From Bacteroidota bacterium (GTDB lineage Bacteria > Bacteroidota > Ignavibacteria > Kapaibacteriales > Kapaibacteriaceae): a stretch of 51,901 bases of DNA. The stretch's first letter is position 1, and each line of letters begins with the position of its first letter. Under the pieces are notes generated by a model, which saw only the letters and a program-made list of their open reading frames with translations, ran no database searches and had not been told where the DNA came from. The translations under genes and the position numbers were made by a program. The stretch covers positions 1 to 51,901 of the forward strand of contig JBEBCJ010000134.1 of the NCBI GenBank assembly GCA_041157865.1. Reading direction: 5' to 3'. Of this stretch, positions 4,625 through 7,623 are shown piece by piece.

Positions 4625-4957
4625 ATGAACACGTATTACGATCCGGCCGACCTTGGCAAGTTTGGCAATATCTCACAGATGCAACCCGAGCTTGCAGAAA
4701 AGTTCTTTGATTGGTACGGGGCTGTCTTTGCAGAAGGTGCGTTATCACAGCGCGAAAAATCATTGATTGCCCTCGCTGTTGCACATGCAGTACAGTGTCC
4801 GTATTGCATAGATGCCTACACTACCGATAGCCTTCAAAAGGGTGCTTCTGAGCAGATGATGATGGAGGCAGTACATGTAGCTGCCGCGATACGAGGCGGC
4901 GCATCTCTTGTACATGGTGTTCAGATGATGAATAAGATCAACGACGTTACCATGTAG
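4625..4957 (+). CDS. AhpD/carboxymuconolactone-decarboxylase-fold protein, arsenosugar-biosynthesis-associated peroxidase-like type
   Basis: 110 aa. Contains ALSQREKSLIALAVAHAVQCPYCIDAYT...VHVAAAIRGGASLVHGV, i.e. an AhpD-like CxxC. It lies immediately upstream of the ArsS-type radical SAM gene. Confidence 0.85.
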   Translation: MNTYYDPADLGKFGNISQMQPELAEKFFDWYGAVFAEGALSQREKSLIALAVAHAVQCPYCIDAYTTDSLQKGASEQMMMEAVHVAAAIRGGASLVHGVQMMNKINDVTM

Positions 4958-4968
4958 CAGGGTGATCA

Positions 4969-6024
4969 ATGGCGCTCGCAACCACAAGTCTTCAGCGCAG
5001 AGGGTCTGACCTTTCCAGTGCCCAGTATCAGCGCGGACTGCTTCAAGCATCTTCTGGTGCGGTTTCTCTGCCGACATTTCAGGAGACTCTTGATGGGCAC
5101 GGGATTGGTCTGCTAAGCCCCTTGTCTACAGAGATTCTGCAGGTCAATCTTGGCAAGATGTGCAATCAAGCCTGTAAGCACTGCCATGTGGATGCTGGAC
5201 CCGACCGAACGGAGATTATGTCTGCCGTAACGATGCAGCATTGTCTTGATGCCATCGATAAGGGTTCGTTTCGCACTGTAGACCTAACGGGGGGTGCGCC
5301 AGAGATGAACCCCGATTTTCGGTGGTTTGTTGATGAGCTTGTCTGCAGGGGTGTTAACGTAATGGTGCGCTGCAATCTTACCATCATCGTTGCCAATCCA
5401 AAGTATCACGATCTGCCGACCTATTATGCCCAGCGTAATGTGCACGTTGTGTCAAGCCTGCCGTTTTATGATGCGAGCTTTACTGATCGACAACGTGGTG
5501 GTGGCGTGTTTGATGATTCGATCAAAGCTCTTCGCATGCTCAATGACGTAGGGTATGGACGTGCAGAGAGCGGGCTGATTCTCGATCTTGTCTATAATCC
5601 AATAGGTGCTTTGCTGCCGGGTCCGCAGGCGTCGCTGGAAACGGAGTTCAAGCGCAATCTTGCAGATAAATACGGTGTTGTCTTTAACAATCTGCACTGT
5701 ATCACGAACATGCCGATTTCAAGATTCCTCGAATACCTTGTGAATGCTGGTAAGTATGACAGCTACATGCAGACCCTCGTTAACGCGTTTAATCCATCGG
5801 CCACACACGGTGTGATGTGCAGATCCACGATCTCGGTTGGTTACGATGGACAACTGTACGACTGCGATTTCAATCAGATGCTCGAGATGCCAGTCCTATG
5901 CGGATCTGCTCATATTTCGCAGCTTAACGTGCCAGAGTTGAATGCACGTACGATTGCTACAGATAGACATTGCTTTGGCTGCACTGCTGGTGCGGGGTCA
6001 TCATGCGGGGGGCAGCTGACATGA
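4969..6024 (+). CDS. arsS: Radical SAM/Cys-rich-domain protein, ArsS type (Cys form, not Sec)
   Basis: 351 aa. The radical SAM cluster motif is CNQACKHC. The C-terminal Cys-rich tail is HCFGCTAGAGSSCGGQLT, with a TGC codon at the position that is Sec in some homologs. Confidence 0.85.
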   Translation: MALATTSLQRRGSDLSSAQYQRGLLQASSGAVSLPTFQETLDGHGIGLLSPLSTEILQVNLGKMCNQACKHCHVDAGPDRTEIMSAVTMQHCLDAIDKGSFRTVDLTGGAPEMNPDFRWFVDELVCRGVNVMVRCNLTIIVANPKYHDLPTYYAQRNVHVVSSLPFYDASFTDRQRGGGVFDDSIKALRMLNDVGYGRAESGLILDLVYNPIGALLPGPQASLETEFKRNLADKYGVVFNNLHCITNMPISRFLEYLVNAGKYDSYMQTLVNAFNPSATHGVMCRSTISVGYDGQLYDCDFNQMLEMPVLCGSAHISQLNVPELNARTIATDRHCFGCTAGAGSSCGGQLT

Positions 6025-6590
6025 GTTTGCATCGCTGCAATTGGTGTCTGAAGGACGATCTCTATATGCAGTATCATGACTGCGAATGGGGAGTACCGTT
6101 GCATGATGATCAGCTCTTGTTTGAGTTTCTCATTCTCGAAACAATGCAGGCAGGATTGAGCTGGCATACGGTTCTCAAGAAGCGGGAAAACTTTCGTGAT
6201 GCGTTCGCTGGTTTTCAGCCCGACGTGGTTGCACGATTTACTGAAACCGACATCATCCGCTGTATGGGAGATCCTGGCATTATTCGCAATCAACAAAAGA
6301 TCAGGGCAGCTGTGGCCAACGCGCAAGCGTTCCTTCGCGTGCAAGAGAGTCATGGCTCATTCGACGCATACATTTGGGACTTTGTAGGGGGCAGGCCAAT
6401 CATCAATGCATTCCGTGAACTACGCGAGCTGCCGGCCAAGACGGATCTATCTGACCGTATCAGCAAGGACTTAAAGCAGCGTGGTTTCGGCTTCGTTGGC
6501 AGCACGGTTGTCTACGCGCATATGCAGGCTACAGGCATGGTGAATGATCACCTCTTATCGTGCTTCCGCTATCATGAGGTGCAACAATGA
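6021..6590 (+). CDS. tag: DNA-3-methyladenine glycosylase I (Tag) homolog
   Basis: The start ATG at 6021 overlaps the arsS stop (ATGA). It aligns by eye along its full length with E. coli Tag: RCNWC...YHDCEWGVP, QAGLSWHTVLKKRENFRDAF, GIIRNQQKI, GFGFVGSTVVYAHMQATGMVNDHLLSC. The Zn ligands are conserved. Confidence 0.9.
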   Translation: MSLHRCNWCLKDDLYMQYHDCEWGVPLHDDQLLFEFLILETMQAGLSWHTVLKKRENFRDAFAGFQPDVVARFTETDIIRCMGDPGIIRNQQKIRAAVANAQAFLRVQESHGSFDAYIWDFVGGRPIINAFRELRELPAKTDLSDRISKDLKQRGFGFVGSTVVYAHMQATGMVNDHLLSCFRYHEVQQ

Positions 6591-7024
6591 TAGATGCTCT
6601 CTTCATCATCGCCGGAATTATTGGTATGGAGGCATTTACGACTGTGTTCCATCGCTATGTGATGCATGGACCATTGTGGCGAGTCCATGTTACGCATCAT
6701 GCGCCTAGTAAACATCCACTTGAACTCAACGATGTGTTTGTGCTCTTCTTCACAAGCATTGCGCTTGTGCTTATAGCTATCGGTTTGCCAAATGGACCTT
6801 CTGTCTTTATTGGACTCGGTATAGCGGTGTATGGGATGTCGTACTTCGTAATGCACGATATGGTTATCCATAAGCGGTTTCTGCGTCAGCCCCTTCCAAC
6901 AAATCGATACCTTCAGGCGGTGTATAAGATGCATATGGCGCATCATAAACATGTTGGCAATGATACAGGAGAAGCATACGGACTCTTCTTCGTGCCGCCC
7001 AAGTACTGGAGCAAAAAAATATGA
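6587..7024 (+). CDS. CrtZ-family (beta-carotene hydroxylase-like) membrane di-iron hydroxylase
   Basis: 145 aa. It has the four His boxes in CrtZ order: HRYVMH, HVTHH, HDMVIH, HMAHH. ATGA overlaps link it to the genes on both sides. Confidence 0.8.
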   Translation: MIDALFIIAGIIGMEAFTTVFHRYVMHGPLWRVHVTHHAPSKHPLELNDVFVLFFTSIALVLIAIGLPNGPSVFIGLGIAVYGMSYFVMHDMVIHKRFLRQPLPTNRYLQAVYKMHMAHHKHVGNDTGEAYGLFFVPPKYWSKKI

Positions 7025-7623
7025 GCCCGCCGCATGATGCGGTGGTGATCGTTGTTTGCAAGGCACCTGAGAGGGGGCGAGTAAAGACTCGTCTGGCAAA
7101 GGACATCGGAGAGGAGCGCGCTTATCATGTGTACTCGATCTTGATGGCCACGCTGTTTGCCAATCTCTCTGCTGGCGCTGGCTATGATGTGTGCGCATGT
7201 GTCGACGGCGACATAGCCCTCGTCCAGGCCGGAACCGTTGATCCTATCAAACAACACGGTGCGTCGCTCGGTGAGCGGATCATCAATGCCATTAAGGACT
7301 GCTCTTCATATCCAGTGCAGATTGTTATCGGTTCCGACACTCCGAACATCACTGTCCAGATCGTGCAACAAGCGGTCACGAGCCTCGATGCTGCCGATGT
7401 TGTGATTGGCCCAGCACATGACGGAGGGTACTATCTCATCGGCATGAAGCAACTGCATGAGGGGCTGTTTGAAGGCATCTCATGGAGCACCGAACACGTG
7501 CTTGAGCAGACACTGGAGCGTGCGACATCAGCCGGACTCTCAGTTGTCCAGCTGCCTGTGCTGCGCGATATCGACACAGTTGATGACCTTACTGCGGTAA
7601 TGCCAGAGTTACTCTCGCAGTGA
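7021..7623 (+). CDS. DUF2064 / TIGR04282-like (rSAM-selenodomain-associated, arsenosugar-type) transferase
   Basis: 200 aa. Contains VVIVVCKAPERGRVKTRL...GSDTP...VIGPAHDGGYYLIGM...ISWSTEHVLEQT...LRDIDTVDDL, typical of the DUF2064 GT-A-like family. Confidence 0.8.
   Translation: MSPPHDAVVIVVCKAPERGRVKTRLAKDIGEERAYHVYSILMATLFANLSAGAGYDVCACVDGDIALVQAGTVDPIKQHGASLGERIINAIKDCSSYPVQIVIGSDTPNITVQIVQQAVTSLDAADVVIGPAHDGGYYLIGMKQLHEGLFEGISWSTEHVLEQTLERATSAGLSVVQLPVLRDIDTVDDLTAVMPELLSQ

What the first reader, a model, noticed from the sequence alone, without database searches (positions are those of the whole stretch)
4625..7623. Compact ArsS-type radical SAM operon with atypical content and no arsM in reach
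Seen in sequence: five + strand ORFs are packed with an 11-nt gap and then three ATGA start/stop overlaps (6021-6024, 6587-6590, 7021-7024), so they are almost certainly one translationally coupled unit. ORF 4969-6024 has the radical SAM motif CNQACKHC and the C-terminal Cys-rich tail HCFGCTAGAGSSCGG. ORF 4625-4957 is a 110-aa AhpD-fold protein with a CPYC motif. ORF 7021-7623 is DUF2064/TIGR04282-like. Established: this trio is the signature neighbourhood annotated as arsenosugar biosynthesis. In that pathway ArsS transfers the 5'-deoxyadenosyl moiety of SAM to dimethylarsenite. Inference: this version is unusual. The window holds no As(III) methyltransferase (arsM), no second TIGR04283-type transferase and no ars resistance genes. 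Instead a Tag glycosylase homolog and a CrtZ-family di-iron hydroxylase are spliced into the middle. The unit continues upstream (metal exporter) and downstream (flavoprotein/polyferredoxin) with gaps of 18 nt or less. The substrate and product in an FCB-type organism are unknown. It could be an undescribed variant organo-metalloid sugar or lipid pathway.
Basis: partly seen in the sequence, partly recalled or inferred. Interest (0 to 1): 0.7.

Follow-up and report, generated by a model that had tools for sequence, protein, structure and literature searches.

The report
ArsS organoarsenic operon with passenger genes
This is a lineage-specific version of the already catalogued bacterial "arsenosugar-type" radical-SAM gene set, carrying an ordinary DNA-repair gene as a passenger and a carotenoid-hydroxylase-derived gene of open role, so it is a modest lead rather than a new pathway.

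Summary
Five + strand genes (4625-7623) sit with an 11-nt gap and three ATGA overlaps, and all quoted motifs are present. Three genes pass curated NCBIfam cut-offs: TIGR04169, ArsS TIGR04167 and TIGR04282.

- **"No arsM in reach" is not unusual.** 32 of 47 Bacteroidota ArsS loci with full flanks lack arsM within 8 kb.
- **Tight packing is window-wide.** The median same-strand gap is 10 nt.
- **tag looks like a passenger.** It is a canonical DNA-3-methyladenine glycosylase with every key residue kept. It is missing from ArsS operons of several relatives. It persists in the same syntenic slot in a relative that has no ArsS genes.
- **The crtZ-like gene is more interesting.** It belongs to a monophyletic offshoot of carotenoid-cluster CrtZ. 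All 9 examined members lie between ArsS or Tag and TIGR04282. It is still absent from 5 of 13 clade lineages.
- **Other membrane hydroxylases recur.** PF04116 hydroxylases are embedded in ArsS clusters of three other orders, which hints at lipid-linked products.
- **ArsS looks unchanged.** It keeps 125 of 127 positions that are invariant in arsM-linked ArsS.

Verdict: a new variant of a known kind, of moderate-to-low interest.

The parts
4625..4957 (+). AhpD-fold CxxC (CPYC) protein of family TIGR04169, the 'arsenosugar biosynthesis-associated peroxidase-like protein'. Core part.
   Evidence: TIGR04169 scores 190.9 bits against a cut-off of 120, and PF02627 scores 67 bits. The gene lies directly upstream of ArsS in 70 of 80 genome loci. 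Its relatives in the PDB are AhpD/CMD-fold proteins.
4969..6024 (+). Radical SAM enzyme ArsS (TIGR04167; Radical_SAM plus DUF3641). It has the CX3CX2C motif at C65/C69/C72 and a Cys-rich C-terminal tail. Core part.
   Evidence: TIGR04167 scores 430.7 bits against 300, and PF12345 scores 182.8 bits. It matches 125 of 127 positions that are at least 96% invariant in 28 ArsM-linked ArsS proteins, including all 8 invariant Cys. No relative with a solved structure was found by sequence.
6021..6590 (+). DNA-3-methyladenine glycosylase I (Tag). Judged to be a passenger housekeeping gene.
   Evidence: PF03352 scores 270.9 bits. The protein aligns without gaps to Salmonella Tag 2OFI at 192 bits, and the Zn-site, base-pocket and DNA-wedge residues are all kept. 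Tags of unrelated phyla are 63-69% identical to it. It is absent from the ArsS operons of L008, L013, L015, L175, L177, L178 and L179. It is present in the same syntenic slot in L173, which has no ArsS genes.
6587..7024 (+). CrtZ-derived membrane di-iron hydroxylase (FA_hydroxylase superfamily) with four intact His boxes. An accessory gene whose role is open.
   Evidence: The protein itself gets no Pfam hit, but its homologue P0017 hits PF04116 at 38.2 bits. H22, H27, H34, H37, H38, H90, H95, H116, H119 and H120 are invariant. It belongs to a monophyletic ArsS-linked clade that is 33-49% identical to CrtZ genes of carotenoid clusters. All 9 examined members of the subfamily at 59% identity or more are ArsS-linked.
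7021..7623 (+). TIGR04282 / DUF2064 protein with a CofC-like nucleotide-diphospho-sugar-transferase fold. Core part.
   Evidence: TIGR04282 scores 176.6 bits against 134, and PF09837 scores 93.2 bits. It matches PDB 3CGX, 'putative nucleotide-diphospho-sugar transferase', at 96.8 bits. It lies near ArsS in about 42 of 80 loci and in all 13 lineages of the window's clade.
7641..8810 (+). FAD/NAD(P)H oxidoreductase of the ferredoxin-reductase / NorW / HcaD type. Likely part of the module as an electron supplier.
   Evidence: PF07992 scores 173 bits. Orthologue-level hits of 33-35% identity and 236-254 bits occur in the ArsS clusters of Flavobacteriales L064, L068 and L084. The gene is absent downstream in L093 and L172.
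8801..9850 (+). NapH-like membrane polyferredoxin, always paired with the flavoprotein.
   Evidence: TIGR02163 NapH/MauN scores 71 bits, below its cut-off, and there are several Fer4 Pfam hits. Homologues at 45-46% identity sit in the ArsS clusters of L064 and L025.
2295..4614 (+). Context only: CdsA (2295-3143), a His-rich CDF metal exporter (3146-4090) and a 179-aa membrane protein (4075-4614). These are syntenic neighbours, not part of the ArsS module.
   Evidence: Families were assigned. The CdsA, CDF and membrane-protein trio stays together when an OmpA-like gene or a DUF1501/DUF1800 pair separates it from AhpD-ArsS, as in L008, L013, L177 and L178.

Best explanation
The stretch is a lineage-specific version of the curated ArsS ('arsenosugar-type') organoarsenical module. 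The host is a Kapabacteria/Ignavibacteria-like FCB bacterium with a tightly packed genome.

**Core genes.** The core is the AhpD-fold CxxC protein (TIGR04169), the radical SAM enzyme ArsS (TIGR04167) and the TIGR04282 nucleotidyl/glycosyl-transferase-fold protein. A flavoprotein and NapH-like polyferredoxin pair usually follows.

**Mechanism.** ArsS reductively cleaves SAM and attaches the 5'-deoxyadenosyl group to a trivalent dimethylarsenical, giving 5'-deoxy-5'-dimethylarsinoyl-adenosine. This reaction was shown for the cyanobacterial enzyme. It is inferred here from family score and residue conservation.

**Inferred supporting roles.**
- The CxxC protein and the flavoprotein/polyferredoxin pair are inferred to provide reducing power. 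They could keep the arsenical trivalent, reduce the Fe-S cluster, or both.
- TIGR04282 is inferred to act on the ribosyl intermediate.
- The methylated arsenical must come from an ArsM encoded elsewhere in the genome or from the environment.

**The two inserted genes.**
- tag is an ordinary DNA-repair gene that lives in this syntenic region and is co-transcribed as a passenger (about 0.8).
- The crtZ-like gene is an offshoot of carotenoid beta-ring hydroxylases fixed inside the operon. I lean slightly towards it being a dispensable passenger or pigment gene (about 0.55). The alternative is an accessory membrane hydroxylase that prepares a lipid acceptor (about 0.45).
For: - HMM scores are above the curated cut-offs for the trio.
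- ArsS keeps 125 of 127 positions invariant in ArsM-linked ArsS, including all invariant Cys.
- AhpD-ArsS adjacency holds in 70 of 80 loci, and TIGR04282 lies nearby in about 42 of 80.
- AhpD, ArsS and TIGR04282 are present in all 13 lineages of the syntenic clade, whereas tag and the crtZ-like gene are patchy.
- The window-type flavoprotein and polyferredoxin also occur in full arsM-containing clusters in L064 and L068, and in L084 and L025.
- Tag keeps all catalytic, Zn and DNA-wedge residues. It is 63-69% identical to Tags of unrelated phyla. It stays in the same slot in L173, where ArsS, AhpD, TIGR04282 and the crtZ-like gene are absent.
- Packing is tight across the whole window.
- The ArsS reaction is taken from the literature (PMC13598754; PMC12159101 citing Cheng et al. 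2021).
Against: - No ArsM, purine nucleoside phosphorylase or TIGR04283 gene lies within about 9 kb in any of the 13 clade lineages. The source of the substrate and the later steps are therefore unseen.
- The flavoprotein/polyferredoxin pair is missing in L093 and L172. In L175-L177 it is separated from TIGR04282 by unrelated genes, so its link could be synteny alone.
- The crtZ-like subfamily is found only inside ArsS operons (9 of 9 examined), with conserved 4-nt overlaps. PF04116 hydroxylases recur in other ArsS clusters. Both points argue against a mere passenger.
- No experiment exists for any FCB member of the family.
Confidence: 0.6

Rival explanations
1. This is a variant lipid-linked organoarsenical pathway. 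In this reading the CrtZ-derived hydroxylase is a working member of the operon. It hydroxylates a membrane isoprenoid, carotenoid or lipid to create the acceptor for the ArsS-derived 5-deoxy-5-dimethylarsinoyl-ribosyl unit. It would fill the slot that sterol-desaturase-like PF04116 enzymes fill in other ArsS clusters. Tag might also release adenine from the adenosyl-arsenical, replacing the purine nucleoside phosphorylase of the full clusters.
For: - The ArsS-linked CrtZ-like proteins form one monophyletic clade. All 9 examined members lie between ArsS or Tag and TIGR04282, while 0 of 78 relatives below 50% identity are ArsS-linked.
- The four His boxes are intact.
- PF04116 genes are embedded in ArsS clusters of Chitinophagales (L048, with a 4-nt overlap with TIGR04282), Kordia (L063, between ArsM and DUF547/GT2) and Pedobacter (L060, L088).
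- PlsC-like acyltransferases sit in four further clusters.
- Full clusters carry a purine nucleoside phosphorylase, which is absent here, where Tag follows ArsS.
Against: - The crtZ-like gene is missing from 5 of 13 ArsS-bearing lineages of the same clade. Tag is missing from 7 of them, and no replacement nucleosidase appears in those operons.
- Tag is canonical in sequence and survives without ArsS in L173.
- All CrtZ-like occurrences trace to one syntenic clade, so they amount to a single insertion event that was then retained.
- The nearest relatives outside the clade are bona fide carotenoid-cluster genes.
Confidence: 0.25
2. The ArsS homologue here works on a substrate that is not arsenic. 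Candidates are another metalloid, or a C=C bond of a lipid or carotenoid in the manner of HpnH. The name 'arsenosugar' would then be an over-annotation for this arsM-less clade.
For: - No arsenic-specific gene lies within about 9 kb in any of the 13 clade lineages or anywhere in the 52-kb window.
- The second-best NCBIfam hit of ArsS is the adenosyl-hopene transferase HpnH, at 38 bits.
- A carotenoid-type hydroxylase sits in the operon.
Against: - 125 of 127 positions invariant in ArsM-linked ArsS are kept, including the five non-cluster Cys.
- The score is far above the equivalog cut-off.
- arsM-less neighbourhoods are the majority even in taxa where other members have arsM next door.
- The HpnH hit is generic radical SAM similarity, far below its cut-off of 225 bits.
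Confidence: 0.08
3. The module is a decaying remnant of a once complete arsenosugar cluster. arsM, PNP and GT2 were lost, and the remaining genes have no current function.
For: The pathway genes seen in full clusters are absent. The region shows turnover, including a CDF remnant and complete loss of the ArsS genes in L173.
Against: - All reading frames are intact.
- The trio is conserved across 13 lineages, down to 62% ArsS identity, with catalytic residues kept.
- Overlapping start and stop codons are conserved in relatives.
Confidence: 0.04

Closest known systems
Synechocystis sp. PCC 6803 ArsM-ArsS arsenosugar pathway (Xue et al. 2019; Cheng et al. 2021, as cited in PMC12159101, PMC13598754 and bioRxiv 10.1101/2022.09.23.509062)
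   Same: The same radical SAM family (TIGR04167 equivalog model, 430.7 bits) with the CX3CX2C motif and the Cys-rich C-terminal domain. The presumed chemistry is also the same: transfer of 5'-deoxyadenosyl to DMAs(III).
   Different: In Synechocystis arsS is co-transcribed with arsM. Here no arsM lies in the 52-kb window, or within about 9 kb in any relative of the clade. The host is a non-photosynthetic FCB lineage, and no product has been demonstrated.
NCBIfam-defined 'arsenosugar biosynthesis' cluster of Bacteroidota (TIGR04169, TIGR04167, TIGR04282, TIGR04283, NF038099 AsSugarArsM, often with purine nucleoside phosphorylase and DUF547), for example L064 and L063
   Same: AhpD-like, ArsS and TIGR04282 are present in the same order. 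The flavoprotein and NapH-like polyferredoxin also occur in L064, L068 and L084.
   Different: It lacks AsSugarArsM, TIGR04283, PNP and DUF547. It carries tag and a CrtZ-derived hydroxylase between ArsS and TIGR04282.
HpnH/HpnG adenosylhopane pathway (functional analogy only; from general knowledge)
   Same: A radical SAM enzyme adds the 5'-deoxyadenosyl group to a substrate, and a nucleosidase or phosphorylase then removes adenine to leave a ribosyl-linked product. This is the logic expected after ArsS.
   Different: It is a different radical SAM family (HpnH scores 38 bits against a cut-off of 225). No HpnG/PNP-type gene is present here, and the substrate is a metalloid rather than an alkene.
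CrtZ beta-carotene 3-hydroxylase of Bacteroidota carotenoid clusters (MerR-CrtI-CrtB-CrtZ or CruF-CrtZ)
   Same: About 145 aa, four His boxes, 33-49% identity, and the same FA_hydroxylase superfamily.
   Different: It forms a separate monophyletic clade. It is never next to crtI, crtB or cruF, and always lies inside an ArsS operon. Its activity is untested.
DNA-3-methyladenine glycosylase I (Tag; PDB 2OFI, 2OFK, 1LMZ)
   Same: It aligns without gaps over 180 residues, and every residue known to bind Zn, 3-methyladenine and DNA is conserved.
   Different: Only its location differs: it is wedged between ArsS and the crtZ-like gene with 4-nt overlaps.

Membership tests
ArsS (TIGR04167, arsenosugar biosynthesis radical SAM protein) | Score at or above the curated equivalog cut-off of 300 bits | tested here: met
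   430.7 bits, covering profile positions 6-303 of 303.
ArsS (TIGR04167, arsenosugar biosynthesis radical SAM protein) | CX3CX2C radical SAM motif plus a DUF3641 C-terminal domain with conserved Cys or Sec residues | tested here: met
   C65, C69 and C72 are present. PF12345 scores 182.8 bits. C284, C299, C335, C338 and C346 match the Cys that are invariant in ArsM-linked members.
ArsS (TIGR04167, arsenosugar biosynthesis radical SAM protein) | Genetic linkage to arsM (co-transcribed in Synechocystis) | tested here: not met
   No ArsM hit in the window in any frame, nor within about 9 kb in 13 related lineages. Linkage is also absent in 32 of 47 other Bacteroidota loci.
ArsS (TIGR04167, arsenosugar biosynthesis radical SAM protein) | Adenosylation of DMAs(III) to 5'-deoxy-5'-dimethylarsinoyl-adenosine | not testable with these tools
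   This needs an enzyme assay. The reaction is known only for the cyanobacterial enzyme (PMC13598754).
TIGR04169 arsenosugar-associated peroxidase-like (AhpD-fold) protein | HMM score at or above 120 bits, a CxxC motif, and a position directly upstream of ArsS | tested here: met
   190.9 bits, the motif CPYC, and an 11-nt gap to ArsS. The same arrangement holds in 70 of 80 loci.
TIGR04282 arsenosugar biosynthesis 'glycosyltransferase' (DUF2064) | HMM score at or above 134 bits | tested here: met
   176.6 bits. PDB 3CGX matches at 96.8 bits.
Complete NCBIfam arsenosugar cluster | Presence of AsSugarArsM (NF038099) and the TIGR04283 GT2, often with PNP and DUF547 | tested here: not met
   None is found in the window at tblastn E of 1 or less. 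They are present in 28, 23, 20 and 17 of 80 comparison loci respectively.
DNA-3-methyladenine glycosylase I (Tag) | Family HMM score | tested here: inconclusive
   PF03352 scores 270.9 bits against a cut-off of 25. TIGR00624 scores 228.4 bits, just under its 232.5 cut-off.
DNA-3-methyladenine glycosylase I (Tag) | Zn site (C4, H17, H175, C179), 3-methyladenine pocket (W6, Y13, Y16, W21, E38, W46) and DNA plug/wedge (Q41, G43, L44). The residue list is from general knowledge of the Tag structures. | tested here: met
   The alignment to 2OFI is gapless with an offset of +2, and all listed residues are identical.
CrtZ beta-carotene hydroxylase / FA_hydroxylase superfamily (PF04116) | Four histidine boxes (HxxxxH, HxxHH, HxxxxH, HxxHH) | tested here: met
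   H22/H27, H34/H37/H38, H90/H95 and H116/H119/H120 are invariant in alignment A2.
CrtZ beta-carotene hydroxylase / FA_hydroxylase superfamily (PF04116) | Pfam PF04116 hit at or above the gathering score | tested here: not met
   The window protein gets no hit even at E of 1 or less. Its 60%-identical homologue P0017 scores 38.2 bits against 31. The bona fide carotenoid-cluster homologue P0020 also gets no hit, so the model is simply weak for short CrtZ proteins.
CrtZ beta-carotene hydroxylase / FA_hydroxylase superfamily (PF04116) | Location in or near a carotenoid biosynthesis cluster (crtI, crtB, cruF) | tested here: not met
   None of these genes is in the window or in any ArsS-linked locus. 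By contrast crtI is found near 48 and crtB near 40 of the 80 metagenome loci, and all of those hits lie in the 78 loci whose CrtZ relative is below 50% identity.
CrtZ beta-carotene hydroxylase / FA_hydroxylase superfamily (PF04116) | Hydroxylation of beta-carotene | not testable with these tools
   This needs complementation in a carotenoid-producing host.

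The most novel reading that the evidence does not exclude
In this Kapabacteria/Ignavibacteria-like clade the ArsS module runs without its own ArsM, nucleoside phosphorylase or GT2. It uses environmental or remotely made DMAs. It has recruited a CrtZ-derived membrane hydroxylase, and possibly Tag as an adenine-releasing enzyme. The product would be a previously undescribed lipid- or isoprenoid-linked organoarsenical. More broadly, membrane PF04116 hydroxylases and acyltransferases in ArsS clusters would mark the unknown late steps of bacterial arsenolipid synthesis.
Probability: 0.15. Interest if true: 0.7.

Novelty: new variant of a known kind. Interest (0 to 1): 0.35.

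Why it matters
To my knowledge, only the first two steps of arsenosugar synthesis (ArsM, then ArsS) have been shown experimentally. The enzymes that remove adenine, activate the ribosyl unit and attach it to glycerol or lipids are unknown.

The comparison made here yields a concrete candidate list from Bacteroidota clusters:
- purine nucleoside phosphorylase
- TIGR04282
- TIGR04283
- DUF547
- PF04116 hydroxylases
- PlsC-like acyltransferases
- two kinds of flavoprotein
- a NapH-like polyferredoxin

It also shows that a whole FCB clade keeps a well-conserved ArsS trio with none of the usual partners nearby. If the CrtZ-derived hydroxylase is functional in this context, it would point to lipid-linked arsenicals in freshwater heterotrophs. 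If it is not, the locus is an ordinary, already annotatable module with two hitch-hiking genes.

Tried and rejected
- **Riboswitch or other RNA element near the operon.** Rfam at gathering thresholds found only four tRNAs at 39558-39991.
- **Promoter and terminator scan of 2000-10200.** Counts were at or below the shuffled expectation, and FCB promoter types are not covered, so the scan says nothing about transcript boundaries.
- **Tag as a replacement for the purine nucleoside phosphorylase of full clusters.** Rejected as the main reading. Tag-less operons of the same clade carry no other nucleosidase. Tag is canonical in sequence. It also persists without ArsS in L173.
- **The CDF exporter and 179-aa membrane protein as part of the unit.** Rejected. 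They stay with CdsA when they are separated from ArsS.
- **'No arsM' as a mark of atypicality.** Rejected, because it is the majority state.
- **Solved structure for ArsS.** None was found by sequence.
- **Literature.** A search for DUF2064 returned no papers. Xue et al. 2019 (PMC6467767) is not held.
- **Search for arsM, crt genes or a second tag elsewhere in the same genomes.** Not possible.
- **Single-linkage clustering artefact.** It merged two unrelated flavoprotein types, the window type and a MerA/Lpd-like type. They were separated by BLASTP.

Full report
**1. Observation**

| Coordinates (+ strand) | Length | Junction with previous gene |
|---|---|---|
| 4625-4957 | 110 aa | |
| 4969-6024 | 351 aa | 11-nt gap |
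| 6021-6590 | 189 aa | ATGA overlap |
| 6587-7024 | 145 aa | ATGA overlap |
| 7021-7623 | 200 aa | ATGA overlap |

- The co-directional run extends from 2295 to 9850. It reads CdsA, CDF, a 179-aa membrane protein, the five genes, a flavoprotein and a polyferredoxin. Its junctions are 2, -16, 10, 11, -4, -4, -4, 17 and -10 nt.
- The motifs CNQACKHC, HCFGCTAGAGSSCGG and CPYC are present.
- The 6021 start of tag is supported by alignment to solved Tag structures from residue 4. Automatic callers chose a later ATG in the same-species contigs.

**2. Family assignment**

Against NCBIfam the trio passes the curated cut-offs:
- TIGR04169: 190.9 bits against 120.
- ArsS TIGR04167: 430.7 bits against 300.
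- TIGR04282: 176.6 bits against 134.

The other genes score as follows.
- Tag: PF03352 at 270.9 bits; TIGR00624 at 228.4, just below its 232.5 cut-off.
- The 145-aa protein has no Pfam or NCBIfam hit of its own. Its homologues carry PF04116, and JGI names them beta-carotene 3-hydroxylase. All ten His of the four CrtZ boxes are invariant.
- TIGR04282 matches PDB 3CGX, 'putative nucleotide-diphospho-sugar transferase'.
- ArsS has no solved relative by sequence.

**3. Rest of the window**

- Pfam scans of all substantial ORFs except rpoB, rpoC and the cut ORF at the window's end, together with a six-frame tblastn, find no ArsM, TIGR04283, purine nucleoside phosphorylase, DUF547, CrtI, CrtB or ars resistance gene.
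- Packing is tight everywhere. The median same-strand gap is 10 nt, and 20 of 33 junctions are 20 nt or less.
- Runs of unrelated genes are packed just as tightly. One example is ThiF, DAO, rRNA methylase, GSHPx, Maf and PlsY, with gaps of -46, -16, 18, 24 and -1 nt.
- Overlap therefore suggests co-transcription but not a shared pathway.
- No Rfam element or informative promoter or terminator signal lies near the operon.

**4. What ArsS neighbourhoods normally look like**

ArsS has at least 8000 sequence clusters of relatives. The closest named ones come from Kapabacteria, Ignavibacteria and Chlorobiota MAGs. A genome scan returned 80 loci, mostly Bacteroidota, with ArsS at 54-74% identity.

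I combined tblastn, ORF clustering and NCBIfam or Pfam scans of the cluster representatives. This gave the following counts of loci with each gene near ArsS.

| Gene near ArsS | Loci (of 80) |
|---|---|
| AhpD-like | 70 |
| TIGR04282 | 42 |
| AsSugarArsM NF038099 (558.7 bits against 400) | 28 |
| TIGR04283 GT2 | 23 |
| purine nucleoside phosphorylase | 20 |
| DUF547 | 17 |
| rhodanese | 8 |
| MerA/Lpd-like flavoprotein | 7 |
| window-type flavoprotein | 6 by ORF clustering; 8 by tblastn |
| NapH-like polyferredoxin | 5 by ORF clustering; 7 by tblastn |

- A full cluster such as L064 reads AhpD, ArsS, TIGR04282, PNP, ArsM, DUF547, GT2, flavoprotein, polyferredoxin.
- Among the 47 loci with at least 5 kb on both sides, only 15 have arsM within 8 kb. 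Eleven show only AhpD with ArsS, and seven show AhpD with TIGR04282.
- 'No arsM in reach' is therefore the common state, not an anomaly.

**5. The window's own clade**

Thirteen ArsS-bearing lineages share the frame HAD, 3HCDH | CdsA, CDF, membrane protein ... S10 peptidase, GCS2, S8 peptidase. They are the window species plus L007, L008, L012, L013, L014, L015, L093/L172, L175, L176, L177, L178 and L179. ArsS identity runs from 62 to 100%.

- All thirteen have AhpD, ArsS and TIGR04282.
- None has ArsM, PNP or GT2 in the DNA held.
- The flavoprotein and polyferredoxin pair is present in most. It is missing in L093 and L172. In L175-L177 it is separated from TIGR04282 by unrelated genes.
- The same two protein types occur in the Flavobacteriales clusters L064, L068 and L084, and the polyferredoxin also in Cesiribacter L025. 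Identities are 33-35% and 45-46%. This supports, but does not prove, a functional tie.
- The CDF exporter stays with CdsA even when OmpA-like or DUF1501/DUF1800 genes intervene. It is a neighbour only.

**6. tag**

- The protein aligns without gaps to Salmonella Tag 2OFI at 192 bits. The Zn site, the 3-methyladenine pocket and the DNA plug/wedge residues are all identical (the residue list is from general knowledge of the Tag structures).
- Tags of Krumholzibacteria, Hydrogenedentota and Rhodocyclaceae are 63-69% identical to it. It is not a divergent paralogue.
- Within the clade, tag is in the operon in six lineages, including the distant L176, where it has 4-nt overlaps and no crtZ-like gene beside it. 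It is absent in seven lineages. No other nucleosidase appears in those seven.
- In L173, an Ignavibacteria MAG with Tag at 67% identity, the same syntenic region holds CdsA, a CDF remnant, a small membrane protein and Tag. It holds no AhpD, ArsS, crtZ-like gene or TIGR04282.
- L174 shows a 72%-identical Tag in an unrelated context.

I conclude that tag is a housekeeping resident of this region and a passenger in the operon, with a probability of about 0.8.

**7. The crtZ-like gene**

- A metagenome scan gave 80 loci. Two were ArsS-linked: L092 (same species) and L093 (85% identity). The other 78, at 37-46% identity, mostly lie in carotenoid clusters. CrtI is nearby in 48, CrtB in 40, CruF in 22 and MerR-B12 in 17.
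- The nearest such relative, P0020 at 48% identity, sits between CruF and MerR-sigma-CrtI-CrtB.
- In a neighbour-joining tree the seven distinct ArsS-linked sequences are monophyletic. The median identity within them is 63%. Among the carotenoid-linked sequences it is 57% (range 36-98%). Between the two groups it is 40% (range 33-49%).
- All nine examined members of the subfamily at 59% identity or more lie between ArsS or Tag and TIGR04282.
- The gene is nevertheless absent from five of the thirteen clade lineages. On the ArsS tree its distribution, like that of tag, needs several gains or losses.
- Separately, PF04116 hydroxylases of the sterol-desaturase/OlsE type are embedded in ArsS clusters of three other orders. 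In Chitinophagales (L048) the gene has a 4-nt overlap with TIGR04282. In Kordia (L063) it lies between ArsM and DUF547/GT2. In Pedobacter it occurs in L060 and L088.
- PlsC-like acyltransferases occur in four more clusters: L018, L032, L040 and L081.

A membrane hydroxylase is therefore a recurrent but optional accessory of ArsS clusters. This keeps alive the idea that the CrtZ-derived enzyme serves the pathway, perhaps by preparing a lipid acceptor. I put that at about 0.45, against about 0.55 for a passenger or pigment gene.

**8. Has ArsS changed its job?**

I aligned the window enzyme with ArsS from all 80 loci. It matches 125 of the 127 positions that are at least 96% invariant among the 28 ArsM-linked enzymes. 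These include C65, C69 and C72 and the five further invariant Cys. The two differences are K81T and F152Y. There is no sign of a substrate switch.

**9. Mechanism**

*Established.* ArsS adenosylates DMAs(III) to 5'-deoxy-5'-dimethylarsinoyl-adenosine in a redox-neutral radical SAM reaction (PMC13598754; PMC12159101 citing Cheng et al. 2021). In Synechocystis arsS is co-transcribed with arsM (bioRxiv 10.1101/2022.09.23.509062, citing Xue et al.).

*Inferred for this locus.*
- The same reaction takes place here.
- The CxxC AhpD-fold protein and the flavoprotein/polyferredoxin pair supply reducing power. They could keep the arsenical trivalent, reduce the Fe-S cluster, or both.
- TIGR04282 acts on the ribosyl intermediate.
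- DMAs comes from an ArsM encoded elsewhere or from the environment.

*Inferred for the full clusters.* PNP phosphorolyses the adenosyl-arsenical, TIGR04282 nucleotidylates the sugar-1-phosphate, and TIGR04283 transfers it to an acceptor. I did not find this stated in the papers I could read, and it is untested.

**10. Verdict**

The locus belongs to a known, curated kind of module, and PGAP-type annotation would name four of the five genes. What is new:
- the clade-wide arrangement without arsM, PNP or GT2;
- a CrtZ-derived hydroxylase subfamily confined to ArsS operons.

tag is a passenger. I score interest at 0.35 and novelty as 'new variant of a known kind'.

Noticed in passing
L048 13363-14121; L063 13734-14624; L060 9607-10407; L088 13973-14761: PF04116 fatty-acid-hydroxylase-superfamily genes (86.8 and 95.7 bits for the two scanned, from L060 and L063) are embedded on the same strand in ArsS clusters of Chitinophagales, Kordia and Pedobacter. 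They may mark unknown late, lipid-related steps of the pathway.
   Followed up: partly
L018 5885-7057; L032 13032-14234; L040 11168-12130; L081 11758-12888: PlsC-like acyltransferases (TIGR00530-type domain) lie next to TIGR04282 or ArsS in four Bacteroidota clusters. This is another hint at arsenosugar lipids.
   Followed up: partly
L018 7054-8109; L032 14429-15487; L048 14122-15177; L081 12885-13937; L083 12782-13837: A 351-aa tandem glyoxalase/VOC-superfamily protein recurs beside the TIGR04283 GT2 on the opposite strand. The C-As lyase ArsI belongs to the same superfamily (from general knowledge). I did not compare the two.
   Followed up: no
L033 11152-11820 and L048 11088-11717: An MIP/aquaglyceroporin-like channel (judged from its NPA motifs only) lies directly after ArsS in three loci. 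This fits transport of a trivalent arsenical.
   Followed up: no
L173 6212-6376: A 57-codon remnant of the CDF exporter C-terminus (38.6% identity, E 8e-7) lies between CdsA and Tag in the relative that lacks the ArsS genes. It points to gene decay and turnover in this region.
   Followed up: partly
L007 10136-11429 and L014 3887-4702: An N6/N4 DNA methyltransferase, followed in L007 by a 172-aa ORF, is inserted between TIGR04282 and the flavoprotein in L007. A 271-aa ORF sits at the matching place in L014, but it was not scanned against any family library. This suggests that the operon tolerates foreign insertions.
   Followed up: no
L013 11002-12513: The TIGR04282 reading frame continues into a roughly 300-aa C-terminal extension that looks like a beta-barrel (503 aa in all). 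It could be a fusion or a frameshift artefact. Unannotated genes of about 290-310 aa follow TIGR04282 in L177 and L179.
   Followed up: no
L012 and L013 record titles: Loci that clearly belong to the same FCB syntenic clade are labelled 'Patescibacteria group bacterium' and 'Candidatus Didemnitutus sp.' in their MAG records. This is probably mis-binning or mislabelling.
   Followed up: no
window 39558-40783: A tRNA-Tyr, Gly, Thr, Trp cluster is followed by secE (39988-40209) and nusG (ORF 40124-40783, true start not determined). The rplK-rplA-rplJ-rplL-rpoB-rpoC genes come next. The 255-aa minus-strand ORF at 39991-40758 is spurious.
   Followed up: yes
window 31016-34041; also L013 6345-9507 and L177 5272-8437: A DUF1800 and DUF1501 gene pair is present. 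The DUF1501 protein in the window carries a T9SS sorting tail. The same pair is inserted between the CDF block and AhpD-ArsS in L013 and L177.
   Followed up: no
window 37733-38365 (- strand): A stand-alone HNH endonuclease gene lies between an unannotated 237-aa ORF and carA.
   Followed up: no
window 4075-4614: A 179-aa multi-pass membrane protein has no family hit. It always overlaps the 3' end of the CDF exporter gene in the clade (35-64% identity in relatives). Its function is unknown.
   Followed up: partly
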